This document shows positions 1 to 44,710 of a DNA stretch of 64,000 nucleotides, one piece after another. The DNA comes from a virus. A program made the translations under genes and the position numbers. The DNA lies in IMG/VR virus record IMGVR_UViG_3300046002_007411, positions 1-64,000 of that record. One strand, given 5' to 3'. The notes below the pieces were generated by a model. The model worked only from the letters and a program-made list of their open reading frames with translations, was not told where the DNA came from and did not search any database. Every line of letters starts with the position of its first letter. Positions within the stretch are counted from its first letter, which is position 1.

Positions 1-1
1 T

Positions 2-616
2 TGTCAAGACTCATATGTTGACACAATAAAAGCTTTGTATAAGGAAAATACGAATGTTACGGTTTTTAAGATTTTCCAAGAGCCTGCGGATATTGAGTTG
101 TATGCACAAAAGAACAACTTACCGGTGCTAAAAGTGGGATTTGAAAACTTATGGAAAGATACTACAGTTTGGTATCGATCATTTTATGCACAATACAATA
201 TTCCTTATGAATATAGATATGAGAAGTTTAAAATACCCAGTAACTTGCCCAGTGCTAACGATCTTTTTGATAGTTTAGATTTATCTGGGCCTTATGCAGT
301 CGTGCATAATGCAAGTAGTGCAAGCAGTCAAGGTTACCCTATAAACTTAATATTAGATAGCCATATTAAAAAAGTTATACATATAGATCCTACAGTATCT
401 AAAAACATGCTAGATTGGTTGAACGTTATACAAAATGCTGCTGAAATTCATGTAGTTCCTAGCAGTGTATTTTGTCTTGTAGATAGTATTGCAAACACTC
501 TAAAATCTAAGTTATACTATCACGACATACGTTTAACAGATACCCCTATCTTACATGCTGATATTTCACGTCCACACACAAACTGGAAAATAATTAAATA
601 TGATCAACAACTATGA
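2..616 (+). CDS. hypothetical glycosyltransferase-associated protein, 5'-truncated at window edge; paralog of 6154-6870
   Basis: Frame is open from position 2; shares LYK(E/D)N..V.VF, VGF, VHN.SS and A.EIH...SS motifs with 6154-6870. Confidence 0.7.
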   Translation, partial: CQDSYVDTIKALYKENTNVTVFKIFQEPADIELYAQKNNLPVLKVGFENLWKDTTVWYRSFYAQYNIPYEYRYEKFKIPSNLPSANDLFDSLDLSGPYAVVHNASSASSQGYPINLILDSHIKKVIHIDPTVSKNMLDWLNVIQNAAEIHVVPSSVFCLVDSIANTLKSKLYYHDIRLTDTPILHADISRPHTNWKIIKYDQQL

Positions 617-1235
617 GTATGATCAAAATGGTGTAATAAAGCAGTTACATAAAACACCAATTGAATATAACCGCACGTATATTGATGCTAGATACAATAC
701 ATATGGTATACTTAATGATTTGATTAGTCATTTACGACTGGGATATATCTCAGGATCTATTGGTAGATTGCCTTTTGATATTTTAGATGTTGGTTATGGC
801 AATGGTGCTTTCCTATCTACATGTGGAAAAATCATTGCTGATTGTAAGGGCTATGACATCAGCACTTATCCAGTTCCTAATAACTGCTCAATAGTAAAGG
901 ATATTTTTACGGAACATCACGATGTGGTAACTTTTTTTGATAGTCTTGAGCATTATGAAGAAATTTACTTTTTACATAAACTAAAATGCAACTATGTATG
1001 CATTAGTCTACCTTGGTGTCATTATTTTAGTGATGAATGGTTTGCTACATGGAAACATCGCAGGCCAAATGAACATTTATGGCATTTTAATGATAAATCA
1101 TTAGTTAACTTTATGCAATCTCAAGGTTTTGAATGTATCAATATTTGCAACATTGAAGATGCTATTAGAAAACATTCATTCTCTTATCAAAATATTTTAA
1201 CAGGTCTATTCAAAAGAATTTATGCACAAAATTAA
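600..1235 (+). CDS. class I SAM-dependent methyltransferase
   Basis: ILDVGYGNG motif I; FFDSLEH motif. Confidence 0.8.
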   Translation: MINNYEYDQNGVIKQLHKTPIEYNRTYIDARYNTYGILNDLISHLRLGYISGSIGRLPFDILDVGYGNGAFLSTCGKIIADCKGYDISTYPVPNNCSIVKDIFTEHHDVVTFFDSLEHYEEIYFLHKLKCNYVCISLPWCHYFSDEWFATWKHRRPNEHLWHFNDKSLVNFMQSQGFECINICNIEDAIRKHSFSYQNILTGLFKRIYAQN

Positions 1236-1322
1236 CCAACTATTGAAATTTGATCTTAATATAGTGCTGCTAGGTGCGGCAGCACAAAAAGATGTCCGCG
1301 TATTTTGGAAAAAAAATCATAC

Positions 1323-2054
1323 ATGAATGACTTGAACATTGTTATCCCTATGGCTGGAAAAGGCTCTCGCTTTCAAAAAGACCGTTATCTAGATCCCAAA
1401 CCGTTAATAGAAATACAAGGTTTGCCTATGATATCTTGGGCTATAAAAACACTTGGTTTGGAAGGCAAATGGTGGTTCATAGTAAGGAATAATGCATACA
1501 AAGATAAAACTGTTTCTGCAATTCAACAAGTATTGAAACACGCAAATTTTATTTACGTAGATACTGAGACAGCAGGACCGGCATGTAGTGCAGCTTTAAC
1601 TGAACACTATATTGATAAGCAGAGCCCATTATGTATTGCAAACTGTGATCAGATAATGACTTGGAACCCACAAGCGTTTTTACATACAGCACAGTTGTAT
1701 GATGGATGTATTGTAACTTACTATAATGATAGTAATAAAAATAGTTTTGCTAGAACAACCAACTTTGGACTAGTGACGGAAGTAAAAGAAAAACAAGTAA
1801 TAAGCGATATTAGTTTAAATGGAATCCATTGGTGGAAACATTCCGCTTATTTTTACGATAGCGTCGTTACTATGATCCAAGCAAATGATACTGCTCCTAA
1901 CGGTGAATATTACATTGGACCTAGTTATAACTATATGATTAAAAAAGGCCTAACTGTGGGCATTCATCATATACCAAACAGCTGGCATAATGCAGTAGGT
2001 GTGCCGGAAGATCTTGATTTATTTTTGGAAAAACAAAAAAATGCAAATATATAA
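1323..2054 (+). CDS. sugar-phosphate nucleotidyltransferase (GT-A, dTDP-glucose pyrophosphorylase-like)
   Basis: IPMAGKGSRF...PKPLI, NCDQ, NGEYY, GVPEDL; ATG at 1323 preferred. Confidence 0.85.
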   Translation: MNDLNIVIPMAGKGSRFQKDRYLDPKPLIEIQGLPMISWAIKTLGLEGKWWFIVRNNAYKDKTVSAIQQVLKHANFIYVDTETAGPACSAALTEHYIDKQSPLCIANCDQIMTWNPQAFLHTAQLYDGCIVTYYNDSNKNSFARTTNFGLVTEVKEKQVISDISLNGIHWWKHSAYFYDSVVTMIQANDTAPNGEYYIGPSYNYMIKKGLTVGIHHIPNSWHNAVGVPEDLDLFLEKQKNANI

Positions 2055-2364
2055 CTTGAGTTCATTTGTAAGAGGCTGGGTAATAGGAAATTTCCAACCA
2101 AGCTTGTTACAAACAGAACTGTTTGAAGTTGGGATACTTAAGCACGCAAAAGGAGAAAAGTGGGCAGCACATTATCATAAGATAGCTACTGAATATAATG
2201 TACTAATATCAGGTAAAATGACTATACAAAATAAGTCTTTGGTAGAGGGGGATGTATTTGTTATAACACCAAATGAAGTTGCAAACCCAGAATTTTTGAC
2301 TGACTGTGTCATTTGCGTTATCAAAGTACCAAGTAAAATAGAGGATAAATATGAAGTTTTATAG
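2041..2364 (+). CDS. cupin-fold protein
   Basis: GWVIGNF, HYHKIATEYN...G, GDVFVI.P cupin motifs; overlaps the upstream stop. Confidence 0.75.
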   Translation: MQIYNLSSFVRGWVIGNFQPSLLQTELFEVGILKHAKGEKWAAHYHKIATEYNVLISGKMTIQNKSLVEGDVFVITPNEVANPEFLTDCVICVIKVPSKIEDKYEVL

Positions 2365-3547
2365 AACTCTAGACGAAGTTGATAAAAGCAAATATATAAT
2401 TGCCACATATCATGTTACTACTACAACTAACATCCAAGAAGCTGCATGGAATATTGCTATTGGTCAAAGTGTAGGTAATCCTAGTATTAGGAATGCATGG
2501 GAAACTGATGAACTTTTTGAAACTCACAGTTGCATTATTTTAGAGGATCCAGATCTACTTAAAAATTTGCAAGAAAAGCAAATAAAAATTGCATTTCCAT
2601 TATCAAATATTGACTTAGATTCTGATGGAATAAGTCAATTATTATGTCAACTTATGGGCGGACAGGTAGATATTAATATTATCTCGTCATGCAAATTGCT
2701 AGATATTGATTTGCCCGAGAGTGCTACAAAACACTTTTTAGGTCCAAAATGGGGACTAACAGGATTTAGAAAGTTCACTAGCCAATATAATAAACCGTTG
2801 TTGGGTGGTATTGTCAAGCCCAAGATAGTTTCTAATCCGCATATGCTAAGAGAAATGGTCAAGCAGATGGTAGAAGGCGGAGTAGATTTCATTAAAGAAG
2901 ATGAAATCATGGGGAATATTGGAGCTTGCCCACTAGATGTTAGAGTGGATACAGTAGCTAACTATCTAGCAAGTCAATCCAAGCCTGTTGTGTTTTGCCA
3001 TACTATTAACTGTGATCCACATATAGTAATAGATCGCGTAAAACGTGTATATCAGCTAGGTGGCAATGGTGTGCATATTAATGTATGGAGTGGGCTTGGT
3101 GTATATAACAGCATACGTAAACTGGACTTGCCTATATTTTTACATTACCAAAGCAGTGGTGCTAAAATTTTTACCGATACAAATCATAAATTCAGCATCA
3201 GCTGGAAAGTTATGTGTCAACTCGCCACACTAATGGGTGTTGATACTATACAAACTGGCATGATTGGTGGTTACAGTAATGATAATCAAAATGATATTTT
3301 AGAATGCATAAAAACTTTGCACCAAGGTAATACAATTCCTGCTCTAAGCTGTGGGTTCCATCCTGGACTGGTGGATTATGTCACACAAGTTGCTGGTGTG
3401 GATTACCTTGCGAATGTGGGCGGGGCCATACATGGCCATCCTGAAGGTACTTTAGCCGGTACAATGGCTATGAGACAAGCTATTGATAATAAACCAAGTA
3501 AAGAATATTATACTGCCATTAACAAATGGGGCATGCTTCATCCATAA
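2351..3547 (+). CDS. RuBisCO-like protein (form IV)
   Basis: GGIVKPK, GGVDFIKEDE (RuBisCO motif with KEDE), LSCGFHPG, GGAIHGHPEG; 398 aa. Confidence 0.9.
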   Translation: MKFYRTLDEVDKSKYIIATYHVTTTTNIQEAAWNIAIGQSVGNPSIRNAWETDELFETHSCIILEDPDLLKNLQEKQIKIAFPLSNIDLDSDGISQLLCQLMGGQVDINIISSCKLLDIDLPESATKHFLGPKWGLTGFRKFTSQYNKPLLGGIVKPKIVSNPHMLREMVKQMVEGGVDFIKEDEIMGNIGACPLDVRVDTVANYLASQSKPVVFCHTINCDPHIVIDRVKRVYQLGGNGVHINVWSGLGVYNSIRKLDLPIFLHYQSSGAKIFTDTNHKFSISWKVMCQLATLMGVDTIQTGMIGGYSNDNQNDILECIKTLHQGNTIPALSCGFHPGLVDYVTQVAGVDYLANVGGAIHGHPEGTLAGTMAMRQAIDNKPSKEYYTAINKWGMLHP

Positions 3548-3589
3548 GATGTAAGACGGATTTAACATAGGGGTTTGTTGGTAAAAGTT

Positions 3590-4051
3590 ATGAAATTTAT
3601 TGCACATCGGGGGCTGATTAATGGGCCAAATACTTGCTTGGAAAATACTCCAGAGCAAATTTATTTTGCACTTTCTCAAGGATATAATTGTGAAATAGAT
3701 GTTTGGTTTATAGATGGCCATTGGTGGCTAGGACACGACAAGCCACAGTATTCTATTGAACTTGATTTTTTAAACGATAATAGATTTTGGATACACTGTA
3801 AAAATCATTTGGCACTAAATCAACTACACGCTGCAGGCAATCATAACTATTTTTGGCACCAAAATGATGATATAGTCTTAACAAGCAAAAATTTTTTTTG
3901 GACATATCCTGGGAAACCTCTTTTTTCTAACAGTATATGTGTAATGCCTGAATGGGTGATGCCTATGGAAGAAATCAAAACCTTAAACTGTTATGGAGTT
4001 TGTAGTGATTATATTTTAGACATTCAAAAAGGAATTTCGAATGAAGTGTAG
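3590..4051 (+). CDS. glycerophosphodiester phosphodiesterase-like (PLC-like) protein
   Basis: IAHRG, ENT, EIDVW, LGHD, WIHCKN, CSDY motifs. Confidence 0.8.
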   Translation: MKFIAHRGLINGPNTCLENTPEQIYFALSQGYNCEIDVWFIDGHWWLGHDKPQYSIELDFLNDNRFWIHCKNHLALNQLHAAGNHNYFWHQNDDIVLTSKNFFWTYPGKPLFSNSICVMPEWVMPMEEIKTLNCYGVCSDYILDIQKGISNEV

Positions 4052-4323
4052 CACATTGTATTTGCAGGAAGTTTGCTTCTCATCAGACAGAGAATTATTT
4101 ATTTGGATCAAGGTCTAGAAGTTTCTAATAAGTGATGTGATGCAAAATGGTAATAAAGAACATATTTTCTACTAGGCGTCTATAGTTGCCTATAGTAAGT
4201 TGGCAAGTAAGAAAAAAATGTGCAATAATACTATTAGGCCTATATTCCTAGATTACATGACAGAATATGGAAATATTTTTGAAGTAATCACACAGACCCA
4301 CAAATTTTATACAGGATAGTCTA

Positions 4324-5268
4324 ATGAAGGATTTTTTATTTTTGCACTATAGCTGGGTAGCTCCTGCATCTTATATTTTTCGTGCATTTGAAAAATGCGG
4401 ATACACTTGTGATTTTGTAACAGAACGTGAAATACACACATGGACTCCTACCACTGATTACAAAATAATTGTAGCTTATTTGCACGATTACGCACCTTGG
4501 GTTAATCGTATTGTAAGTGAGTGGTTTCCACATAGCTTTCTCATACAACATGATGACACAGATTTTCCCAATGTTATGTCATATTACTCTAGACAACCAG
4601 ATTTAATTCTACATAGAGAATTAACTGATAAAAGTCAAACTCCTTATCCAAATACACCTACGTATGGTATGCACTTTCCAATAGCTAGTGTCTATAACGC
4701 TGAACAATCAGCTAACAAAAAATATGATGTGTGCTTTTTAGGCTGTCCAAACAACCCAAGACGTAACATCTTTATTAGCACAATAGAGCAACTTGCAAAT
4801 AACGAACTAGCCCATTTGAAATGGTACATCAAATATGAGCCAACTAGAAATTGGTATGAATTTCAACAAGTAGTCAATCAAAGCAAAATAGGTTTAAACT
4901 ATCCTAGCAACAGTTTTGATACCCAAAGAGTTTGGGAGCTAGCAAGTGCAAGTAGTTGTATTATTCAACCTGAAATGCCAAATCTAAGTGTCAAAGAACA
5001 GGGACGGAGATTTGATAGTTATGTAGTTATTGATCCTAGTTGCAGTGATTTACGTGAAAAAATTCTCTGGTGTTTGGAAAAAGATCGTTGGAAGCAACAA
5101 GGTGCAATGGCTCTAGAACAGTATCAGCTGCATCATAGCCAAATCAGATGTTTTGAAAGATATCACGATATAATATTGCGGCATTGTTTGAGTATATTGC
5201 CTCGACCAATTGTGGCATGGGAAGGAATAGAAATTTATAAAAAATGGAGGGATAATCCTAACGTTTAA
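4324..5268 (+). CDS. glycosyltransferase (CgeB/YkvP-like, GT-B)
   Basis: YDVCFLG, SKIGLN, RVWE motifs. Confidence 0.65.
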   Translation: MKDFLFLHYSWVAPASYIFRAFEKCGYTCDFVTEREIHTWTPTTDYKIIVAYLHDYAPWVNRIVSEWFPHSFLIQHDDTDFPNVMSYYSRQPDLILHRELTDKSQTPYPNTPTYGMHFPIASVYNAEQSANKKYDVCFLGCPNNPRRNIFISTIEQLANNELAHLKWYIKYEPTRNWYEFQQVVNQSKIGLNYPSNSFDTQRVWELASASSCIIQPEMPNLSVKEQGRRFDSYVVIDPSCSDLREKILWCLEKDRWKQQGAMALEQYQLHHSQIRCFERYHDIILRHCLSILPRPIVAWEGIEIYKKWRDNPNV

Positions 5269-5463
5269 GGCCTAATAAGTTAAGCATGGCATTGTTATGA
5301 TTTGCAGATTACTGTGGCAAATATTAAAATAAAATAAAGAAAAGATAAATGTTCTGTAAATCCCTTGTATATAATCCTTTATTACCTGCATTAGTAACAT
5401 TTTATAATATCATTGGTATAGTGTTAGATTATGCTAATACTACTATGGGAAATATTTGAAATC

Positions 5464-6150
5464 ATGAAAATTATAAGTATCAGTGTTTATGGGCCACAAG
5501 ATCGCTATATTGTTGGGGCAAAACGTCAAATAGAACTAGCGCAACGATTCTTAGCGGATTGGACCGTGAGAATATACACAGATAACCCTGCTAATTTTAT
5601 GAACTGTGATAATGTTGATGTTGTAGAAGTAAAAGATAATAGTTTTGGTGTGTTTTGGAGATTCAGGCCTATGTTTGAAGATCCTAATAATATCGTTTTA
5701 GTTAGGGATAGCGACTCTAGATTGACTACAAGAGAAATTCTGTGCATAAAAGAATGGTTAGAAAGTGATGCTCAGTTACATATAATCAGGGATCATCAAG
5801 CACATTATGATTGGCCAATCATGGCTGGATTATTTGGTTATAAAGGAAAACTTCCTGATGCGTTGTATCAAAGTATGTTATTACAACAAATGAATCATTT
5901 CTATACAAGTGACCAAGTTTGGCTACGCGATGCGCTATGGCCTTTTGCGCAATCTTCGTGTTTGATTCACAGTATAACATCAACAGATTGGTTTAAACAT
6001 TCACGAACTCATTTACAAAATCCTTTTGATTTCTGTGGTAATGGCTGGAATGAACATGATTTGCCAATTTACCCTCCTGATTTTGGACCAACATGGAAAG
6101 ATTTTATATCAGACAATAATAAGTTTAGTTTAGGGCTGTTAGGACCTTAG
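5464..6150 (+). CDS. conserved hypothetical, glycosyltransferase-like
   Basis: KIISISVYG, WRFRPM, VRDSDSRL, IRDH..H...MAGLFG, DQ.WL; located in glycan cluster. Confidence 0.6.
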   Translation: MKIISISVYGPQDRYIVGAKRQIELAQRFLADWTVRIYTDNPANFMNCDNVDVVEVKDNSFGVFWRFRPMFEDPNNIVLVRDSDSRLTTREILCIKEWLESDAQLHIIRDHQAHYDWPIMAGLFGYKGKLPDALYQSMLLQQMNHFYTSDQVWLRDALWPFAQSSCLIHSITSTDWFKHSRTHLQNPFDFCGNGWNEHDLPIYPPDFGPTWKDFISDNNKFSLGLLGP

Positions 6151-6153
6151 GAG

Positions 6154-6870
6154 ATGTCTTTTATTGTTCATCATCATTTAGGTTTAGGAGACTTTTTTAT
6201 TTGCAATGGTTTAGTTAATAGCTTAGCTAAGCAACATGGTCAAATATTTTTAGCATGCAAAGAAAAAAACTACGAGACAATTGGTAGCTTATACAAAGAT
6301 AACTCACAAGTAAAAGTTTTTGTTGTAAGAAACGAGCCACAGGACATTTTTGATTTTAGTAACAAAAACCAAATACCAATTTTACATGTGGGGTTTCAGT
6401 TTTGTGATTTAAGTAACTTTGAAAGCAGTTTTTACTTACAGTTGGGTTATGACCCTCAAATGCAATATAGTGCGTTTACGTTGCCGTTGGACACCTTACA
6501 ACCAAATAAAATGTTTTTTGATTGGATTGATGATAAAGGCAAGGAATATGTTTTTGTACATAATCAAAGTAGTTTAGAAACATTTAATTTGCATATTGAG
6601 TCAAATCTACCTCAGTATATTGTCAAAAAGTCGCAAACCGCAAACATATTGGATTATGTTCCACTTATGCTTGCTGCAAAGGAAATACATTTGATCAACA
6701 GCAGTATACAAGCACTTGTTTGGCCTTTACTGATGCAAAACTATTTTGGTAAAACACAGATCTTTTTCCATGATTTTTCACAAGTAAGTGTCAATCAAAC
6801 TACACCTATTAAAGTTCCTAAACATCCTAATGTAAAGATTTTGCATTACACAACCCAATCTAAACCGTAA
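6154..6870 (+). CDS. hypothetical glycosyltransferase-like protein
   Basis: HHLGLGD N-terminal motif typical of GT-B (GT9-like) proteins; paralog of 2-616. Confidence 0.6.
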   Translation: MSFIVHHHLGLGDFFICNGLVNSLAKQHGQIFLACKEKNYETIGSLYKDNSQVKVFVVRNEPQDIFDFSNKNQIPILHVGFQFCDLSNFESSFYLQLGYDPQMQYSAFTLPLDTLQPNKMFFDWIDDKGKEYVFVHNQSSLETFNLHIESNLPQYIVKKSQTANILDYVPLMLAAKEIHLINSSIQALVWPLLMQNYFGKTQIFFHDFSQVSVNQTTPIKVPKHPNVKILHYTTQSKP

Positions 6871-6888
6871 CACTGGTAAGGAAAAACA

Positions 6889-7587
6889 ATGAAAATCCAC
6901 TGTTTTATCTTTAACTGGCCAGGAAAAACTCCTTACGCAAAAACTCTCGAGCAGCAACTGACCAATATTGGATATTATCCCACAGTAATCAATAGTGATC
7001 CCAATTACCAACCTTTTAACTGGATAAACTTGGGTAATCAAGCATATTTTGGTGCTCAATGGCAACTGGCGGTTTCTTTATTCCAAGCTGATTTATTTTT
7101 TCATGTACAAGCAGACACTGAATATCAAGATTGGCAGGGAGTTTTTGATAGAGCATTGAAATACAAAAAAACATTAAACTGGGGTGTCTGGGCACCGGAT
7201 TTCCAAGAAAACACATTTTGGGCACACCCATTGCCACAATGGAATCATGCAGACAGAAACTTGCAACTGGTCCCTAATAGTGACTGTACGTGTTGGTTTA
7301 TTGATGGCGGTTTAATATCAGAGTTTCGCACATTGGGGATAGACTGGAAAACTAATTTTTATGGTTGGGGCATGGACAGTATAATATGTTCACTAAGTTA
7401 TATAAACGCTCAACCTGTCATACGAGATACCATGCACCAGATCATACATCATCCTGGACGCGGCTATGATACCACGCATGCGTATAATCACATGCAACAA
7501 ATGTTTAGTCAACTAAATCCTGACCTTAGAAAGGTCATTGAGTTATCGTTTGCTAATAGTTCTGAACTTGTAAACTATGTTAGATGA
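6889..7587 (+). CDS. hypothetical GT-A-like protein, paralog of 9329-10030
   Basis: MKI..FIFNWPG, FHVQAD, DCTCWF, GWG.D shared with 9329-10030. Confidence 0.7.
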   Translation: MKIHCFIFNWPGKTPYAKTLEQQLTNIGYYPTVINSDPNYQPFNWINLGNQAYFGAQWQLAVSLFQADLFFHVQADTEYQDWQGVFDRALKYKKTLNWGVWAPDFQENTFWAHPLPQWNHADRNLQLVPNSDCTCWFIDGGLISEFRTLGIDWKTNFYGWGMDSIICSLSYINAQPVIRDTMHQIIHHPGRGYDTTHAYNHMQQMFSQLNPDLRKVIELSFANSSELVNYVR

Positions 7588-8563
7588 AAATATGAAAAAA
7601 CCAATTAAGATTTCCTATTCAAGCATGTGGCCCAAATTCAATCATGAAGTTATGCCACAAGACTATTTTTTTGAATTTGTTTTAAGCCAAAAATACCAAG
7701 TCCTTTATTGTGATCAAGATCCTGATGTAATCATTTACAGTGTGTTTGGTCCAAGCCCTGATATATCCAAAATAAATCCCAAAACACTTGTAATAGCATA
7801 CAGCGGAGAACCATTTGACGTTCAAGGTCCTGCTGATATAGTTTTTGGATTTCATGGCGAAAATCAAGAAAACTATTTTCGTTTGCCAATTTGGGCGTTG
7901 TGGATTCATTGGGACAACCAACCTTGGAAATACAAACTAACAGAAACATCACATGCAGGTCAGGGCAGTCATCATGTAGCTACCTCAGGTAACTACGAAA
8001 ACTCCAGTGGGCATCCCATGCGATTGAGCAATATATTAAAACGTCATACCAATATCAATCATGCAGATAAATTTTGTAACTTTACATACGCCCGTAACAG
8101 CCGAGAGCGTGTGGAATTCTTTTTGTTATTAAATCAAAAAAAGAAAGTGGATAGCACTGGAAAGTTGTTTAACAACGCAGGATACTATCTTGGTAGTAAA
8201 CCTCATGATTTATCATCTTGGAGATTTACTTTGGCATTTGAAAATACACAACTACCAGGGTATGTAACTGAAAAGTTGATAGAACCACTTGCTGCCGGCA
8301 GTATTCCTATTTATTGGGGTGGAAACAAGTCTATAGAAGACTTTAATCCTGACAGTTTTATCAATACTGCAGATTTTTCCGACTGGTCTGCTGCTATTGA
8401 CTGGATAATGCATGTAGAGAATACACCCAGTTTGCAACAGAAATATTTACAAGCACCTGTGTTTAAGGCCGACCCCTGTTATCCTCAACAAGTATTGTCT
8501 GCCATTTACAACAAGCTAATACTAAAAAATCCCGCACTAATTTTGGATAGCCATGACTCCTGA
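7577..8563 (+). CDS. alpha-1,3/4-fucosyltransferase family (GT10)
   Basis: FTLAFEN...GYVTEKL...AGSIPIYWG motif. Confidence 0.85.
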   Translation: MLDENMKKPIKISYSSMWPKFNHEVMPQDYFFEFVLSQKYQVLYCDQDPDVIIYSVFGPSPDISKINPKTLVIAYSGEPFDVQGPADIVFGFHGENQENYFRLPIWALWIHWDNQPWKYKLTETSHAGQGSHHVATSGNYENSSGHPMRLSNILKRHTNINHADKFCNFTYARNSRERVEFFLLLNQKKKVDSTGKLFNNAGYYLGSKPHDLSSWRFTLAFENTQLPGYVTEKLIEPLAAGSIPIYWGGNKSIEDFNPDSFINTADFSDWSAAIDWIMHVENTPSLQQKYLQAPVFKADPCYPQQVLSAIYNKLILKNPALILDSHDS

Positions 8564-9332
8564 TATTCCCACATATATTTTGCATTATACCAAAAACACA
8601 CAACGACGTCTTTTCCAAGAACATATTTTGGCACTGGAAGGATTTACAAATGTAACATGGATTACGGATTTTGACCGTGAAACTATTACATATGATATGT
8701 TTTTAGAGCATTTCAGTGCCCATGTTGTGGAATACATGAAAAGACGGCCCACTGCGTTTGATCCTTTTTATCCACTGCGCGGAGAAGAAATCAGTTTGTG
8801 TATGAAACACAAAGCTGCGCTGAGTTTATTTTGGCAAACATCTGCAACATGTTGTCTGATTTTAGAAGATGACGTGGTTATACAAAAAGACTTCAAAAAT
8901 CAGCTAATCGAGCATATGGTTTCTTTACCACAGGATTGGAAGTTGGCTTTTCCTGGAGATTGCAACATGAGAATAGAAACACATTTGTTAAAGCCCAATC
9001 AAGCTTGGTATTTGAATCCTGTGGGCAAAGCCAAATGCAGCGATAGTATTTTATGGAATCGCAGCAGTGCAAGGGAAATATTACAAGGTTGGGCTAATCA
9101 TAAAATATGCATGCCAAGTGATCATGAAATAAGTTTTTGGATGCGTGTTCTAAACTGGCCAACTTATTGGTTGGAACCTCCTATTTGTGTTCAAGGCAGC
9201 CACATAGGCTTGTTTGAAAGCATGCAACTACCACATGGAAAATACTACAATCCCGATTTAAAATATCGCGAAGATCTCACAGAAATCCTGCAAAAACTTG
9301 ATATTGCAACACACATCAATAGACCCTTATGA
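8553..9332 (+). CDS. glycosyltransferase family 25
   Basis: N-terminal YILH...RR, EISL..KH, LILEDD. Confidence 0.75.
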   Translation: MTPDIPTYILHYTKNTQRRLFQEHILALEGFTNVTWITDFDRETITYDMFLEHFSAHVVEYMKRRPTAFDPFYPLRGEEISLCMKHKAALSLFWQTSATCCLILEDDVVIQKDFKNQLIEHMVSLPQDWKLAFPGDCNMRIETHLLKPNQAWYLNPVGKAKCSDSILWNRSSAREILQGWANHKICMPSDHEISFWMRVLNWPTYWLEPPICVQGSHIGLFESMQLPHGKYYNPDLKYREDLTEILQKLDIATHINRPL

Positions 9333-10030
9333 AAATTCAAAGTTTTATTTTTAACTGGCCAGGCCATTATACGCAAGCGCAACAGCTTGAGCAAAGATTG
9401 CTGCCCTTGGGGCACTGTAACGTAGTGAATAGTGATCCTGATAATATACCCAGCCATTGGTTAAACATTGGTAACCATGCTTGGTTCACCCAACAATGGC
9501 TAACTGCTTGCCAACACTTTCAAGGCGATATTATGTTTCATGTCCAAGCCGACGCTTGCCCAGAAAATATACCCCAGTTATTTCAGGATTGTTTGCAATA
9601 TCAACAACAATATAACTGGGGCATTTATAGCCCTAACTTGGATTTTACACCACATACATCTCAACAGGCAGATATTACATCTATAAAACTACATCATGAT
9701 CATTTGAAAATGGTCAACAATCCCGACTGCACCTGCTGGTTTTTACATGGAGATATCATTGAGGATTTCAACAAGTTAGCTATCGATTGGTCAGGAAACA
9801 CGATAGGTTGGGGTATTGATTATATAATGGTAGCCCTGAGCTACATGAAAAAACGTCCTGTGATTCGAGATTATAATCATTTAGTAGATCATCCTCGCCA
9901 TACCAACTATACCGGAGATGCAGCGTGGACTCAAATGCAACATACATTGCGTCAATGTCCGGCTGAACTACTAGACACAATACACTTGCTCATGCAAAAT
10001 AGAAACCAAATAGTAAAGTTTTTCCTATGA
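9329..10030 (+). CDS. hypothetical GT-A-like protein, paralog of 6889-7587
   Basis: Shared motifs with 6889-7587. Confidence 0.7.
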   Translation: MKIQSFIFNWPGHYTQAQQLEQRLLPLGHCNVVNSDPDNIPSHWLNIGNHAWFTQQWLTACQHFQGDIMFHVQADACPENIPQLFQDCLQYQQQYNWGIYSPNLDFTPHTSQQADITSIKLHHDHLKMVNNPDCTCWFLHGDIIEDFNKLAIDWSGNTIGWGIDYIMVALSYMKKRPVIRDYNHLVDHPRHTNYTGDAAWTQMQHTLRQCPAELLDTIHLLMQNRNQIVKFFL

Positions 10031-10905
10031 AACCCTGTCTTCGCCTCGCCTACAAAAATATGTGGCCTGATCACAATCCTGATCAACTACAACCACGGGA
10101 TTTTTTCCGTGGTTGTTTGGAACAACATTACACAGTGGTTATAGACAACCATGCTCCTGATGTTGTGATCTATAGCTTGGGTGGAGGCCCGCAACCTGGT
10201 GAATATTACAGCGACCCTATTTCTATTGCCTACAGCGGAGAAGTTCAAGACGCCCCGGGACCTTGTGATTTAACTTTGGGATTTCATCATCACCCTGACG
10301 TAAAATACAAGCGACTGCCTTTATGGCCTTTATATATTGACTGGGATGTAACACAAGTTACGCAACATCCATTGCATGTTTACAACATCCTGAATCGTCA
10401 TAAACAGGAACCTATTCGAAAATCTAGTTTTTGTAACTTTACATATCGAAATCCTGTTAAAAGCAGAGTGGAGTTTTTTCTGGCTCTTAATCAAAAACAA
10501 CGTGTTGATAGTACCGGACAGTTATTTAATAACACTGGACGATTGCTTGCTGACAAAACTGTAGAGTTACAGACATACAGATTTACAATAGCTTGGGAAA
10601 GCAGTATTTCTCCAGGATATGTTACCGAAAAACTTCTAGAACCACTTGCAGCAGGCAGTATACCCATTTACATGGGAGGCAGTGATGCCGTAAAGGACTT
10701 CAATCCCCGCGCATTTATCAATGTAAGTGATTTTCCAAACCTTCAACAAGCTGTAGATTACATAACATATGTGGATTCTAACCCTAACTTGGTTGATGAT
10801 TACTTATCACAGCCTGTTTGGGAAACTACTCCTACATGGCCACACGATGTATTTTCCTGGCTATATGAAATATTTGTGGAGAAAAAGCCTCACTTGAAGC
10901 TTTGA
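10027..10905 (+). CDS. alpha-1,3/4-fucosyltransferase family (GT10), second copy
   Basis: FTIAWES...GYVTEKL...AGSIPIYMG. Confidence 0.85.
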   Translation: MKPCLRLAYKNMWPDHNPDQLQPRDFFRGCLEQHYTVVIDNHAPDVVIYSLGGGPQPGEYYSDPISIAYSGEVQDAPGPCDLTLGFHHHPDVKYKRLPLWPLYIDWDVTQVTQHPLHVYNILNRHKQEPIRKSSFCNFTYRNPVKSRVEFFLALNQKQRVDSTGQLFNNTGRLLADKTVELQTYRFTIAWESSISPGYVTEKLLEPLAAGSIPIYMGGSDAVKDFNPRAFINVSDFPNLQQAVDYITYVDSNPNLVDDYLSQPVWETTPTWPHDVFSWLYEIFVEKKPHLKL

Positions 10906-11933
10906 TTTATTATCTTTAAATTTTCAGCAAGCCGGGAATCTTGCGGGTCAAGCACACATGCAGCTTGTGCGTGTGTCTTTGCTTGGGCAAACCAAGATAA
11001 GTTCCAATAGCCTATAGCAAGATAATCATGAAAATCCACACAATCATCAGCAACTGAATCTAGATAAGTCAGTGTTTTCGCTGCAATTAACCCCTGATGA
11101 CTGGCCCATACACATTGATGCCAATCCTGCCGACTGTAATATAACTTGGCTAAGTCCCGCCAAGTTTCTCTGCGACTGCCTTCAGCTACAGCATGCAGGA
11201 AATACTTTTCCTGGTTGACAGGATCAACTAAAGCCCACAGTCGCCAGGCTTCGTTACGTTCTGCCCACCAAGCGTTTTTCAAACTCAAGAAATCATCTAA
11301 TGCTGTTTTTGCACGCTCATAGTGGCCCTGATGAATGCATTCCCTAGCATACCAAAAAGCAAGTTGACTATCCTCGGGATCTTCTTCATGGGCCAAAGCC
11401 ATGAGTTCCAAATAATCTCTGCGATGAGGCTGACTGCGATCTTGTGTTTGCAATATGAGATTTGCCTGGCATACTCGTTCTTGCTCAGTTATACCACAAG
11501 CAAAAACTGACTCATGAACAGCTCGGCGCCAAGTATATCCCTGCCGGGCATGTATTTTATTTGCCCAAAAGCCCTGATCACTTACATCAGCAGCAAACAC
11601 ATACATGTAACTTAGTCTGGTTGTTCCCGGTGTCCATGCTTGTTCCACAGCTTGACGCCATCCCGGCATCAGCCATTCATCCATGTCCAAGCTTATGCAA
11701 ATATCTGCGTCTTGTGGGCACAAGTTCAAAGCTTGATTTCTAGCATGATCAAAACGCCAGGGAGTTTGTTGTATGTTGTAAACAGTAACTCCCTGTTGCT
11801 GCAACGCTACAACAGTGCTATCTTGGCTGCCAGTATCACATACCACGCGATAATCTGCATCTTGACAACTGTCCGCCCAACGTTGGACATTGGCATCTTC
11901 GTTCCTGGCGATAGTATAAACACAAATTTTCAT
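10890..11933 (-). CDS. GT2 glycosyltransferase with TPR-like C-terminus
   Basis: MKICVYTIARNE, DTGSQD, FDHARN, LDMDE; true start at 11933 rather than 12296. Confidence 0.85.
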   Translation of the reverse strand: MKICVYTIARNEDANVQRWADSCQDADYRVVCDTGSQDSTVVALQQQGVTVYNIQQTPWRFDHARNQALNLCPQDADICISLDMDEWLMPGWRQAVEQAWTPGTTRLSYMYVFAADVSDQGFWANKIHARQGYTWRRAVHESVFACGITEQERVCQANLILQTQDRSQPHRRDYLELMALAHEEDPEDSQLAFWYARECIHQGHYERAKTALDDFLSLKNAWWAERNEAWRLWALVDPVNQEKYFLHAVAEGSRRETWRDLAKLYYSRQDWHQCVWASHQGLIAAKTLTYLDSVADDCVDFHDYLAIGYWNLSWFAQAKTHAQAACVLDPQDSRLAENLKIINQSFK

Positions 11934-11981
11934 ATTGTAATATAACGAGTTTTTTGTTTGATTATCAATAAATATTTCACA

Positions 11982-12626
11982 ATGAAGATTCAAGAACTTG
12001 AGATCACCAAACTTGCTCGTGACCATGCAGAACCTTGGCTGGAAGTGTTTGAACATTATGGCTGGAAAATACTGGGAACAGGACGTGAAGCTTATGTTGC
12101 CTTGAATCCCCGTAAAAACTATGTTATAAAAATCTGGCGGCGGGGCAGTAACTACAACAAATATGTGGATTTTGTGAAAAAACATCCCAATCCACATTTT
12201 CCAAGATTTTTCCGTGAACCTCGACGTATTCCCGGCACTAATTTTTATTATATTGCCTTGGAGAAACTGGAACCTGTGGGCAGCCAGGGATCCCAAGGCA
12301 ATCGTTTGGTAAAGGATTTTCTACCAGAAATGATTTACATGGGATTGGCATTCAGCGATCAAGGAAGATATTTCTCACAACTGCTGGATGTTAATCGTGA
12401 ACTAGCATCTAGATTTCCCACGATATCATATAGATTGGAGTCTATTGCGATGAACCCAGAACTACATGAAATGGTGTATAAAACTATAGGTTATCCACCA
12501 GAATCATGGAAAAAGGCCATTGAGCAAATTATGGAGTTTGCTGACAGTTGGCAGTTGGAATTTGATTTGCCAGACTTTAACTTCATGAGATGGCACAGCA
12601 CACTTGTGATAACTGATCCTTTTTAA
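11982..12626 (+). CDS. protein kinase-like (T7 Gp0.7-like) #1
   Basis: LGTGREAYV Gly loop, VIK, ALEKL hinge, DLPDFN catalytic loop, ITDP; TAAATA at 11969-11974. Confidence 0.7.
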   Translation: MKIQELEITKLARDHAEPWLEVFEHYGWKILGTGREAYVALNPRKNYVIKIWRRGSNYNKYVDFVKKHPNPHFPRFFREPRRIPGTNFYYIALEKLEPVGSQGSQGNRLVKDFLPEMIYMGLAFSDQGRYFSQLLDVNRELASRFPTISYRLESIAMNPELHEMVYKTIGYPPESWKKAIEQIMEFADSWQLEFDLPDFNFMRWHSTLVITDPF

Positions 12627-42880: not shown

Positions 42881-44710
42881 ATGGACATAGAAACTGCATG
42901 GGATTTATACAAGAATAACAACTGGCAATCAGCCTGGGAGATCTGTCAAGATCTAGTAGACAAAAACGCACAGCATGCAGACGCATGGCATATTGGCGGT
43001 GTTTGTTTACGTAACTTAAAACAAACTACCACAGCACAAAAATGGCTGATGCATGCAGTGCAACTATTACCGCAAGCGTGGGAACCTTGGTATAACCTAG
43101 CCTTGGTCTATCAAGACACACAACAATGGCCCAACAGTTTGCAAGCATGCAAGCAAGCTGAACAGTTTTATCAGCAAGACACCCGAATACAAATCTGCAA
43201 ACTTATTAACTTGATTCATCTTGAAGATCTCAACACATGGCAGGATGTCTGGCAGAATATCAAAAATCTTGACACTACATTTGGTTGGGATTTAGTTGCC
43301 AATGCCTGTGAGCAACAACAACACTATGACCTTGCACAACAAGTTTACGATCAGCTTATAATACGCGAACCCCAGCAGGCTCTTTGGTGGAATAATCGCA
43401 GCAGTGTTTGTTATAAACAAAACAACGTTTCTCAAGCTCTGCACGATGCTCTGCAGGCAAATCTTCTGGATCACACTCAGGGCTGGCACAACATGGCTGT
43501 GGCATGGCAAGCAGTAAAAAACCTAGACATGAGCTTGCAATGTTATTCACAAGCGTTGCAACACAATCCTTGTGCTAGTGAAACTTGGAACAATCGCAGT
43601 GTGATTTTCCACGCACAAGGAAAAACCACAGAGGCTATACAAGATGCCAATCGCAGCTTGGAAATTGATCCTCGCAACATAGCAGCTAGAAACAATCGTG
43701 GCACGTATTTTCTTGACATCATGAACTATGTTGCTGCGTTACAAGACTTTCAACAAGCAGCAACTTGGGCACCTGATAATCGCGATGTGGCTTTTAATCA
43801 TAGCATAGCTTTGTTTAAAACCCACAGTTGGCAACAAGCATGGTGTTATTGGGAACATCGGGAGATCCCACAAGTTTTATCACAAGATATTCCTGTGTAT
43901 AACGGGCAACAAATATTAAGCAACAAAAAGATTGCTGTAATACATGAACAAGGTTACGGCGACAGTATTCAGTTTGCTAGATATATCCAATGGCTGAAAA
44001 AGCAAGGTGCGCAAACTCATGTAATAATTCCTCAGCCCTTGCATAGATTATTTCAAGGACTTCCGGGGTGTGATCATATACAAGAACAGCTTCCGGGACC
44101 TGGTGATGTGGATTATCAAGTTGCCATGATGAGTATTCCCCATTGCATGAGCAGCCAATGGGACTTCCAAGCGCAACACAACAGCTATTTTCAATTAGAT
44201 GCGGACAACCTTCTCATGTGGCGGCCTGCCCGTGCAAAAACTCCACGTTTACAAGTGGGGATTGCTTGGCGTGGTAATCCTGATCACAAAAATGCCCGCA
44301 ATAGAAATATTAACTTGCAGTCACTGGAACCACTGTTTCAGTTGCCTTGTGATTTCCATGTGTTACACACCGATACTACCAGTCAGGAGCAAGACATTAT
44401 CGGGAAATATCACAACGTATCTATATTACCTGAACCTATAAAAGATTTCAGTGACACAGCAGCAATAATACACTATTGCGATTTAGTAATCTCAGTGGAT
44501 ACCAGTGTGTTACACTTGTCTGGTGCTTTGGCCAAAAAGTCTTGGGCGTTATTGCCTTACAACAGTTGTTGGCGTTGGGGGCATCACGAGGCTAAAACCT
44601 CCCCGTGGTATTGCGACATGACGCTTTACCGCCAGTCGCAGCCACAGGACTGGACTGGCGTTGTAAAGACAGTTACATGGGACTTACTGACCTTATTAAA
44701 TGGCAGGTAG
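42881..44710 (+). CDS. TPR-repeat protein with C-terminal GT9-like glycosyltransferase
   Basis: TPRs; EQGYGDSIQFARY, VGIAWRG, DFSDTAA, ISVDTSVLHLSGAL, WRW, SPWY. Confidence 0.9.
   Translation: MDIETAWDLYKNNNWQSAWEICQDLVDKNAQHADAWHIGGVCLRNLKQTTTAQKWLMHAVQLLPQAWEPWYNLALVYQDTQQWPNSLQACKQAEQFYQQDTRIQICKLINLIHLEDLNTWQDVWQNIKNLDTTFGWDLVANACEQQQHYDLAQQVYDQLIIREPQQALWWNNRSSVCYKQNNVSQALHDALQANLLDHTQGWHNMAVAWQAVKNLDMSLQCYSQALQHNPCASETWNNRSVIFHAQGKTTEAIQDANRSLEIDPRNIAARNNRGTYFLDIMNYVAALQDFQQAATWAPDNRDVAFNHSIALFKTHSWQQAWCYWEHREIPQVLSQDIPVYNGQQILSNKKIAVIHEQGYGDSIQFARYIQWLKKQGAQTHVIIPQPLHRLFQGLPGCDHIQEQLPGPGDVDYQVAMMSIPHCMSSQWDFQAQHNSYFQLDADNLLMWRPARAKTPRLQVGIAWRGNPDHKNARNRNINLQSLEPLFQLPCDFHVLHTDTTSQEQDIIGKYHNVSILPEPIKDFSDTAAIIHYCDLVISVDTSVLHLSGALAKKSWALLPYNSCWRWGHHEAKTSPWYCDMTLYRQSQPQDWTGVVKTVTWDLLTLLNGR

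What the first reader, a model, noticed from the sequence alone, without database searches (positions are those of the whole stretch)
1323..4051. Form IV RuBisCO-like protein in a phage glycan-biosynthesis operon
Nucleotidyltransferase, cupin and RLP overlap (translational coupling), are followed by a GDPD-like gene, and are embedded among glycosyltransferases and a methyltransferase. Characterised RLPs act in methionine salvage or catabolism of sugar acids (enolase, isomerase, decarboxylase chemistry). Inference: here the RLP is biosynthetic, making an unusual (branched or carboxylated) sugar-phosphate that is then NDP-activated for glycosylating the virion, DNA or host surface.
Basis: partly seen in the sequence, partly recalled or inferred. 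Interest (0 to 1): 0.78.

Follow-up and report, generated by a model that had tools for sequence, protein, structure and literature searches.

The report
Phage RuBisCO-like sugar-activation gene cassette
A large lake-water phage carries a RuBisCO relative that cannot fix CO2 and that sits beside, or in other genomes is fused to, a sugar-activating enzyme, a small metal cupin and a miniature phosphodiesterase, which points to an untested sugar-building job for the RuBisCO fold.

Summary
Window 1323-4051 (+ strand) encodes a nucleotidyltransferase (NT), a small cupin, a 398-aa RuBisCO-like protein (RLP) and a 153-aa GDPD-like protein. The first three overlap by 14 nt each. They lie in a low-GC island of glycosyltransferases and a methyltransferase, on a T4-like lake phage.

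The RLP keeps the Mg/carbamate enolisation residues and one phosphate site. It lacks the carboxylation residues and the second phosphate site. It falls in a well-supported clade apart from MtnW-, OiaX- and form III-type sequences.

The cassette is not a chance neighbourhood. NT lies near the RLP in 48 of 51 viral loci and 11 of 13 genome loci. Natural RLP-NT, RLP-NT-cupin and GDPD-like-RLP fusions exist.

In cultured cyanophages that lack the RLP, the same NT family is fused to RpiB, RibB or a HAD domain. RpiB and RibB act on ribulose-5-phosphate.

My best reading is that the RLP isomerises a pentulose-type sugar phosphate that the NT then activates for the island's transferases. "Branched or carboxylated" is not supported. 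The product and the target are unknown.

Phage RLPs were reported in 2019 with function unknown. This scan has already noted the same cassette in at least 69 other genomes.

The parts
600..1235 (+). SAM-dependent methyltransferase directly upstream of the cassette
   Evidence: Pfam Methyltransf_23, E 2.7e-11. It is not homologous to the Methyltransf_24 gene (cluster c4) that accompanies the RLP in 30 other loci.
1323..2054 (+). Nucleotidyltransferase (NT) of the 4evw-like / phrog_3980 family
   Evidence: Pfam NTP_transf_3, 27.7 bits. Full-length weak matches to RmlA/GlmU/AglF models. Family profile against PDB 4evw, E 6.8e-32. phrog_3980, E 3.2e-52. G-x-G-S-R-F and P-K-P-L motifs are invariant. 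Present near the RLP in 48 of 51 viral loci.
2041..2364 (+). Small single-domain metal cupin (107 aa); overlaps the NT end by 14 nt
   Evidence: Invariant H-x-H-x4-E cupin motif 1 that aligns with the metal ligands of YxaG. AF2 pLDDT 89. Its structural neighbours are small monocupins, including archaeal phosphomannose isomerases and 'sugar phosphate isomerase' cupins. phrog_24762, E 6.5e-32.
2351..3547 (+). RuBisCO-like protein (398 aa) of the 'IV-like' phage/Patescibacteria clade; overlaps the cupin end by 14 nt
   Evidence: Pfam and NCBIfam results. Best PDB match is MtnW 2oek, E 2.7e-32. Separate clade with SH-aLRT 99. Active-site map.
3590..4051 (+). Miniature GDPD-like phosphodiesterase (153 aa)
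   Evidence: Invariant H11 R12 E23 N24 E40 D42 H54 D55. Profile against GDPD 7e0v, E 3.9e-4. AF2 pLDDT 95.4 and top Foldseek hits are GDPDs. phrog_34507, E 1.7e-22.
4324..5268 (+). Probable glycosyltransferase (cluster c20), recurs in 5 other RLP loci
   Evidence: A relative (L036) matches Glyco_trans_1_2, E 2.6e-6. The window copy gives a weak WaaS/CpsH match. Recurrence.
7577..8563 (+). GT10 fucosyltransferase-like gene
   Evidence: Pfam Glyco_transf_10, E 2.6e-17, plus FucT_N.
10027..10905 (+). Second GT10 fucosyltransferase-like gene
   Evidence: Pfam Glyco_transf_10, E 5.5e-20, plus FucT_N.
10890..12296 (-). GT2-TPR protein at the far edge of the island
   Evidence: Pfam Glycos_transf_2 and TPR_2; weak, below the cut-offs.

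Best explanation
The four genes form a sugar-activation cassette. The RLP uses the RuBisCO-superfamily machinery (carbamylated Lys, Mg2+, general base) to enolise and isomerise a monophosphorylated keto-sugar. This is most likely a pentulose phosphate of the ribulose-5-phosphate type. The NT then joins the resulting phosphate ester to a nucleotide. The cupin does a second metal-dependent isomerisation or epimerisation. The GDPD-like enzyme handles a phosphodiester or cyclic-phosphate intermediate or by-product. The activated unit is used by the glycosyl- and methyltransferases of the island.

Shown: the gene identities, the conserved linkage, the fusions, the retained and lost active-site residues, and the separate clade.

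Inferred: the substrate class, the order of steps, the role of the cupin and the phosphodiesterase, and the glycan target.
For: Linkage: NT is near the RLP in 48 of 51 viral loci, the cupin in 36 and the GDPD-like gene in 40, while the flanking genes vary. The same module occurs in 11 of 13 genome loci, including Patescibacteria, a 2.28-Mb Verrucomicrobiae chromosome, Bacteroidota and Balneola.

Fusions: RLP-NT (P0123); RLP-NT-cupin (P0272 and P0273, 52% identical and colinear over about 815 aa); GDPD-like-RLP (P0156).

Chemistry: K175, K177, K201, D203, E204, G381, G403 and G404 are kept, and mean column identity is 75% across 20 phage RLPs.

Entry metabolite: the same NT family is fused to RpiB in phage Bellamy, to RibB/DHBP synthase in S-SKS1 and to a HAD beta-PGM-like domain in B23 and S-CAM9. 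RpiB and RibB both act on ribulose-5-phosphate (established knowledge). In Bellamy a cupin 45% identical to this one follows NT-RpiB.

Context: glycosyltransferases and methyltransferases surround the module in phage and bacterial loci. The 111.7-kb record holds no other NT or epimerase.
Against: No enzyme of this clade has been assayed. The cupin is missing from 15 of 51 viral loci and the GDPD-like gene from 11, so neither is essential. A HAD gene coexists with the RLP in 4 loci, so RLP and HAD are not simple substitutes. The RLP keeps the phosphate site that in RuBisCO lies next to the carbonyl. Ribulose-5-phosphate could therefore fit only in the orientation seen for the products of the Rhodospirillum rubrum RLP (recalled knowledge, not tested). 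The NT's substrate could be a glycosyl-1-phosphate or an acyclic keto- or polyol-phosphate; nothing here decides. No RNA data were found.
Confidence: 0.65

Rival explanations
1. Same cassette, other order. The NT first makes a nucleotide-linked ketose from a common keto-sugar phosphate. The RLP and the cupin then isomerise the nucleotide-bound sugar, with the RLP phosphate site holding the beta-phosphate.
For: In the triple fusion the order is RLP-NT-cupin, and small cupins often act on NDP-keto-sugars (established knowledge for RmlC and FdtA). Only one phosphate site is kept in the RLP.
Against: To my knowledge, no RuBisCO-family enzyme is known to take a nucleotide-linked substrate. The NT fusions to RpiB, RibB and HAD, which act on free sugar phosphates, argue that tailoring comes before activation.
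Confidence: 0.15
2. A salvage module for SAM by-products (methylthioadenosine or 5'-deoxyadenosine), like MtnW with the ARD cupin, or the R. rubrum RLP with its cupin methylsulfurylase. It would serve the many SAM and radical-SAM enzymes of these islands.
For: RLP-plus-cupin pairs are known from both methionine-salvage variants (recalled knowledge). Methyltransferases and radical-SAM genes are frequent in the loci. The best PDB match is MtnW.
Against: The RLP scores far below the MtnW cut-offs (155.5 against 409; 130.2 against 513.6) and lies outside the clade that holds a true MtnW. The record has no IF-2B/MtnA-type isomerase. The constant partner is an NT, which salvage does not need, and it is fused to the RLP. 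The cupin profile finds neither ARD nor the R. rubrum cupin in the PDB at E up to 1.
Confidence: 0.08
3. A working carboxylase that adds CO2 to make a carboxylated or branched sugar acid.
For: The carbamate/Mg site is intact.
Against: K334 is Tyr, N123 is Gly, E60 is Gly, T65/W66 are Asn/Pro, and R295/H298 are lost. All RuBisCO equivalog cut-offs are missed.
Confidence: 0.04
4. A non-catalytic or regulatory RLP.
For: Some RLPs (Chlorobaculum tepidum type) have no known reaction (recalled knowledge).
Against: The catalytic residues are invariant across a clade that has diverged to about 35% identity. The protein is fused to enzymes.
Confidence: 0.03

Closest known systems
'Form IV-like' RuBisCO-related proteins of phages and Beckwithbacteria (Jaffe, Castelle, Dupont, Banfield 2019, PMC6389311)
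   Same: A phage-borne, highly divergent RLP that groups with Beckwithbacteria sequences and lacks several RuBisCO residues. In my tree a Beckwithbacteria locus (L060) falls in the same clade.
   Different: That paper left the function open and, in the passages I read, did not describe a nucleotidyltransferase, cupin or phosphodiesterase partner. The linkage, the fusions and the cyanophage analogues come from this work.
R. rubrum DeepYkrW RLP (5-methylthioribulose-1-phosphate 1,3-isomerase) with its cupin partner; recalled knowledge
   Same: An RLP paired with a small cupin. The chemistry moves a carbonyl along a monophosphorylated pentulose, and its products are ribulose/xylulose-5-phosphate analogues.
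   Different: A different clade. There is no sign of methylthio metabolism, the partner here is an NT, and the setting is a glycan island.
MtnW (YkrW) 2,3-diketo-5-methylthiopentyl-1-phosphate enolase
   Same: The best solved-structure match (2oek, E 2.7e-32). Both keep K175, K201, D203 and E204 and replace E60, N123 and K334.
   Different: Scores are far below the family cut-offs and the branch is separate.
Bifunctional PMI-GMP enzymes (AlgA/ManC type: nucleotidyltransferase plus cupin isomerase); recalled knowledge
   Same: An NT and a cupin sugar-phosphate isomerase work in one nucleotide-sugar pathway and can be fused.
   Different: The cupin here is a 107-aa generic cupin that does not match the MannoseP_isomer family. 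An RLP and a mini-GDPD are added.
Cyanophage glycan islands (Bellamy gp206-208, S-SKS1 SWZG_00042, B23 gp352-353, S-CAM9 gp064-067)
   Same: The same NT family (31-39% identity to the window's NT; 61-66% to the NT of cupin-less RLP loci), the same cupin (40-45%) and the same mini-GDPD (33-47%).
   Different: They have no RLP. RpiB, RibB or a HAD domain is fused to the NT instead.

Membership tests
RuBisCO large-subunit superfamily | Catalytic and N-terminal Pfam domains above the gathering score | tested here: met
   PF00016: 101.7 bits against 30.1. PF02788: 22.6 against 20.7.
Bona fide RuBisCO (forms I-III) | Carbamylated Lys and Mg ligands (K201, D203, E204) and K175 | tested here: met
   K182, D184, E185 and K156 are invariant in 20 phage sequences.
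Bona fide RuBisCO (forms I-III) | Carboxylation and second-phosphate residues (K334, N123, E60, T65, W66, R295, H298) | tested here: not met
   They read Tyr, Gly, Gly, Asn and Pro, and R295/H298 are lost. H327 is Gln here but His in most of the clade.
Bona fide RuBisCO (forms I-III) | NCBIfam equivalog cut-off | tested here: not met
   Form III: 162.2 against 497.45. PRK13475: 86.4 against 489.
MtnW / YkrW enolase | NCBIfam equivalog cut-off and clade membership | tested here: not met
   155.5 against 409 and 130.2 against 513.6. A true MtnW (P0217, 652 bits) lies in another clade.
OiaX 3-oxo-isoapionate-4-phosphate decarboxylase | NCBIfam equivalog cut-off | tested here: not met
   131.6 against 700.
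'IV-like' phage/Beckwithbacteria RLP clade | Groups with phage and Beckwithbacteria sequences, apart from the other forms | tested here: met
   A 36-row clade with SH-aLRT 99 holds the window, phage loci and the Beckwithbacteria locus L060. The tree used a quick search and is unrooted.
GDPD (PF03009), for the 153-aa protein | Catalytic H-R, E/D metal ligands and second His | tested here: met
   H11 R12, E40 D42 and H54 D55 are invariant and align with GDPD 7e0v.
GDPD (PF03009), for the 153-aa protein | Pfam match and full-length barrel (about 220-250 aa) | tested here: not met
   No Pfam match at E 0.01 or better. The protein is about 150 aa. Foldseek query TM-scores to GDPD chains are only 0.41-0.59. 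It is therefore 'GDPD-like', not a member.
Cupin superfamily | Beta-barrel fold and motif 1 (H-x-H-x4-E-x6-G) | tested here: met
   Motif. Fold model and neighbours. Pfam Cupin_7 matches 24 of 25 members, but below the cut-off.
Sugar-phosphate nucleotidyltransferases (RmlA/GlmU-like fold) | G-x-G-x-R loop, conserved Lys and full-length profile match | tested here: met
   All equivalog cut-offs are missed, so the substrate is not assigned.
BcbE family (IPR016873; needed for the fructose side chain of the Pasteurella multocida type B capsule, PMC13552107) | Sequence membership of the NT | not tested
No BcbE sequence or model was at hand, and the names of the 120 best NT relatives do not mention BcbE.

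The most novel reading that the evidence does not exclude
The RLP carries out a new RuBisCO-superfamily reaction on a ribulose- or xylulose-5-phosphate-type substrate: carbonyl migration or epimerisation through an enediol. Its product becomes, through the NT and with help from the cupin, a nucleotide-activated ketopentose or pentofuranose donor that the host cannot make. This would be a route to an activated sugar that needs neither a kinase nor a phosphomutase. The mini-GDPD would recycle a cyclic-phosphate breakdown product.
Probability: 0.25. Interest if true: 0.88.

Novelty: new variant of a known kind. Interest (0 to 1): 0.72.

Why it matters
All assigned functions of RuBisCO-like proteins are catabolic or salvage reactions. 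A biosynthetic role in making an activated sugar would add a new branch of chemistry to one of the best-studied enzyme folds. It would also give a function to a clade with thousands of metagenomic members (2,679 clusters matched).

It would further show how large aquatic phages build glycans from central pentose phosphates.

The question can be tested directly. The proteins are small and soluble-looking, natural fusions exist, and cultured cyanophages carry the sister cassettes.

Tried and rejected
- Searching the RLP with tblastn against 50,697 GenBank phage records found nothing.
- A search for NT-cupin fusions seeded with L022:3134-4189 failed. That protein turned out to be NT-HAD, not NT-cupin.
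- The family of about 250-aa proteins with many paralogues (c5) gave no PDB match. I call it WavE-like only from a shared S-G-x-x-R / R-x-D pattern and from one relative's Pfam match.
- The promoter and terminator scan gave no more sites than shuffled sequence.
- No RNA holder was listed among the sequencing runs. All 24 listed runs are lake or freshwater metagenomes and are possible sources of this DNA.
- Four literature searches for the RLP together with phage, cupin, nucleotidyltransferase, viral/auxiliary-metabolic or capsule/glycosyltransferase terms found only Jaffe et al. 2019 as relevant.
- The alignment cannot say whether the single retained His (H265) matches H292 or H294.
- A simple 'HAD replaces RLP' model was rejected, because 4 RLP loci hold both.
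Full report
**What is there.** The window is the first 64 kb of a 111.7-kb virus record that CheckV rates 27% complete. It carries DnaB, primase, a split type II topoisomerase, ribonucleotide reductase, ClpX and DnaK, so it is a fragment of a large phage. Related contigs carry T4 neck and tail-sheath-stabiliser genes. Near-identical DNA is held by 24 lake or freshwater metagenome runs.

Bases 1-10,900 are a run of tightly packed + strand genes at 33-39% GC, against 42-48% for the rest of the window. Within this run the genes are:
- a methyltransferase (600-1235);
- the NT (1323-2054);
- the cupin (2041-2364);
- the RLP (2351-3547);
- the GDPD-like gene (3590-4051);
- a probable glycosyltransferase (4324-5268);
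- two GT10 genes.

A GT2-TPR gene closes the island on the minus strand. NT/cupin and cupin/RLP each overlap by 14 nt. I set the cupin and GDPD-like starts at the ATG codons where their relatives begin.

**The RLP.** It is a clear member of the RuBisCO large-subunit superfamily, but it misses every NCBIfam equivalog cut-off by a wide margin. I aligned it with a form III-like sequence, a true MtnW and an OiaX-like sequence.
- Kept: K175, K177, K201, D203, E204, and the G381/G403/G404 phosphate site.
- Replaced: E60 by Gly, T65/W66 by Asn/Pro, N123 by Gly and K334 by Tyr. R295 and H298 are lost.
- H327 is Gln here but His in most of the clade.

One His of the H-x-H motif remains. The alignment cannot say which one it is. 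This pattern fits an enolising enzyme that acts on a monophosphate. It does not fit a carboxylase.

I built a tree of 124 rows: the window, phage loci, genome loci and 50%-identity representatives. The window falls in a 36-row clade with SH-aLRT 99. Three comparison sequences lie outside that clade:
- P0217, a true MtnW scoring 652 bits;
- P0218, OiaX-like;
- P0177, form III-like.

The tree came from a quick search and is unrooted. The clade matches the 'IV-like' phage and Beckwithbacteria group of Jaffe et al. 2019, who left its function open.

**The partners.**
- *NT.* Its family profile matches PDB 4evw, a pyrophosphorylase of unknown substrate, at E 6.8e-32. It matches RmlA, GMP and HddC-type enzymes only at about 1e-7.
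- *Cupin.* It has an invariant H-x-H-x4-E motif that aligns with known metal ligands. Its model resembles small monocupins, among them archaeal phosphomannose isomerases. No specific cupin family fits.
- *153-aa protein.* It keeps the GDPD catalytic motif and its confident model finds GDPDs first. It is about two-thirds of a normal GDPD in length.

**Is the grouping real?** I fetched 52 viral loci whose RLPs are 54-70% identical to this one. Of the 51 that could be scored:
- the NT is within 6 kb of the RLP in 48;
- the cupin in 36;
- the GDPD-like gene in 40;
- the window's other island genes in at most 5.

Gene order varies but the set persists. A Methyltransf_24 gene joins it in 30 loci.

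Thirteen loci from genome assemblies hold clade members. Eleven have the NT beside the RLP. They include Beckwithbacteria, Saccharibacteria, a complete 2.28-Mb Verrucomicrobiae chromosome, Sphingobacteriales and Balneola, again among glycosyltransferases, methyltransferases and radical-SAM genes.

Fused proteins exist:
- RLP-NT (P0123);
- GDPD-like-RLP (P0156);
- two RLP-NT-cupin proteins of 813 and 817 aa, which are colinear and 52% identical, so the fusion is old and maintained.

**A lead on the substrate.** No record in a 50,697-record GenBank phage collection holds the RLP. PHROGs does hold families for the NT, the cupin and the GDPD-like protein. Their relatives sit in the glycan islands of cultured cyanophages. 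There the same NT family is fused to:
- RpiB in Bellamy gp206, which is annotated 'phosphatase';
- RibB/DHBP synthase in S-SKS1;
- a HAD beta-phosphoglucomutase-like domain in B23 and S-CAM9.

RpiB and RibB both act on ribulose-5-phosphate (established knowledge). In Bellamy the cupin follows NT-RpiB directly. In B23 the GDPD-like gene follows HAD-NT.

I infer that this NT family activates a small sugar phosphate drawn from the pentose-phosphate pool, and that a variable tailoring enzyme goes with it. In the uncultured T4-like group that tailoring enzyme is the RLP. This is an inference from gene fusions, not a measurement. A HAD gene coexists with the RLP in four loci, so the tailoring enzymes are not simple substitutes.

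**How it may work.** The RLP binds a keto-sugar monophosphate through the retained phosphate site, enolises it at the carbamate/Mg centre and releases an isomer. The R. rubrum RLP sets a precedent: it interconverts a 1-phospho-2-pentulose with ribulose/xylulose-5-phosphate analogues (recalled knowledge). The NT then forms the nucleotide-linked unit. Two details remain open:
- The unit may be a glycosyl-1-phosphate. The cupin would then make the ketose-to-aldose step, and the mini-GDPD might reopen a cyclic phosphate.
- The unit may be an acyclic keto- or polyol-phosphate, as in CDP-ribitol-type donors. The mini-GDPD might then act on the resulting phosphodiester.

Earlier notes of this scan call the NT 'BcbE-like'. 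BcbE is needed for the fructose side chain of a Pasteurella capsule (PMC13552107), which would fit ketose activation. I could not test the homology.

**Rivals.** A salvage role is unlikely for three reasons:
- the RLP lies outside the clade that holds a true MtnW;
- the record has no MtnA-type isomerase;
- the constant, sometimes fused partner is an NT.

Carboxylation is unlikely because of the residue losses. A non-catalytic role is unlikely because the catalytic residues are invariant.

**Novelty.** Phage RLPs are published. The cassette, the fusions and the proposed role did not appear in the papers I could search. This scan has already noted the same cassette on other DNA: 109 notes in at least 69 genomes, with follow-ups that reached the same general reading.
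- the triple-fusion comparison;
- the RpiB, RibB and HAD fusions of the NT in cultured cyanophages;
- the residue map for this copy.

Noticed in passing
P0187 (protein): A 583-aa protein with a TIR domain (residues 3-134) fused to a RuBisCO-family protein. This could be a defence-type architecture.
   Followed up: no
P0157, P0181 (proteins): IF-2B-type isomerase fused to a form III-like RuBisCO (726 and 742 aa). This would put two steps of the AMP/nucleotide pathway in one chain.
   Followed up: partly
L072:4489-5646 (phage Bellamy gp206); L075:7004-8431 (phage S-SKS1 SWZG_00042): Bellamy gp206 is annotated 'phosphatase' but is an NT-RpiB fusion. The S-SKS1 gene annotated as DHBP synthase carries the same NT at its N-terminus.
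   Followed up: yes
window 1-10900: The glycan island is 33-39% GC against 42-48% for the rest of the phage. It lies at the very start of the contig, so it may be cut off upstream.
   Followed up: no
window 2-616 and 6154-6870: Two paralogous genes of unknown function (cluster c22) that recur in 5 other RLP loci. Gene 5431-6150 (cluster c12) recurs too.
   Followed up: partly
L076 (Azospirillum lipoferum plasmid AZO_p6, 55108-59202): A bacterial plasmid locus with a HAD phosphatase, a 537-aa protein containing the same NT, an unknown gene and a WavE-family gene. It lies beside SIS-domain and GT41/TPR genes. NT homologues were found in 38 plasmid records.
   Followed up: no
window 42881-44710: A TPR protein with a weak heptosyltransferase-like C-terminus, far from the island. 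It may be a protein glycosyltransferase.
   Followed up: no
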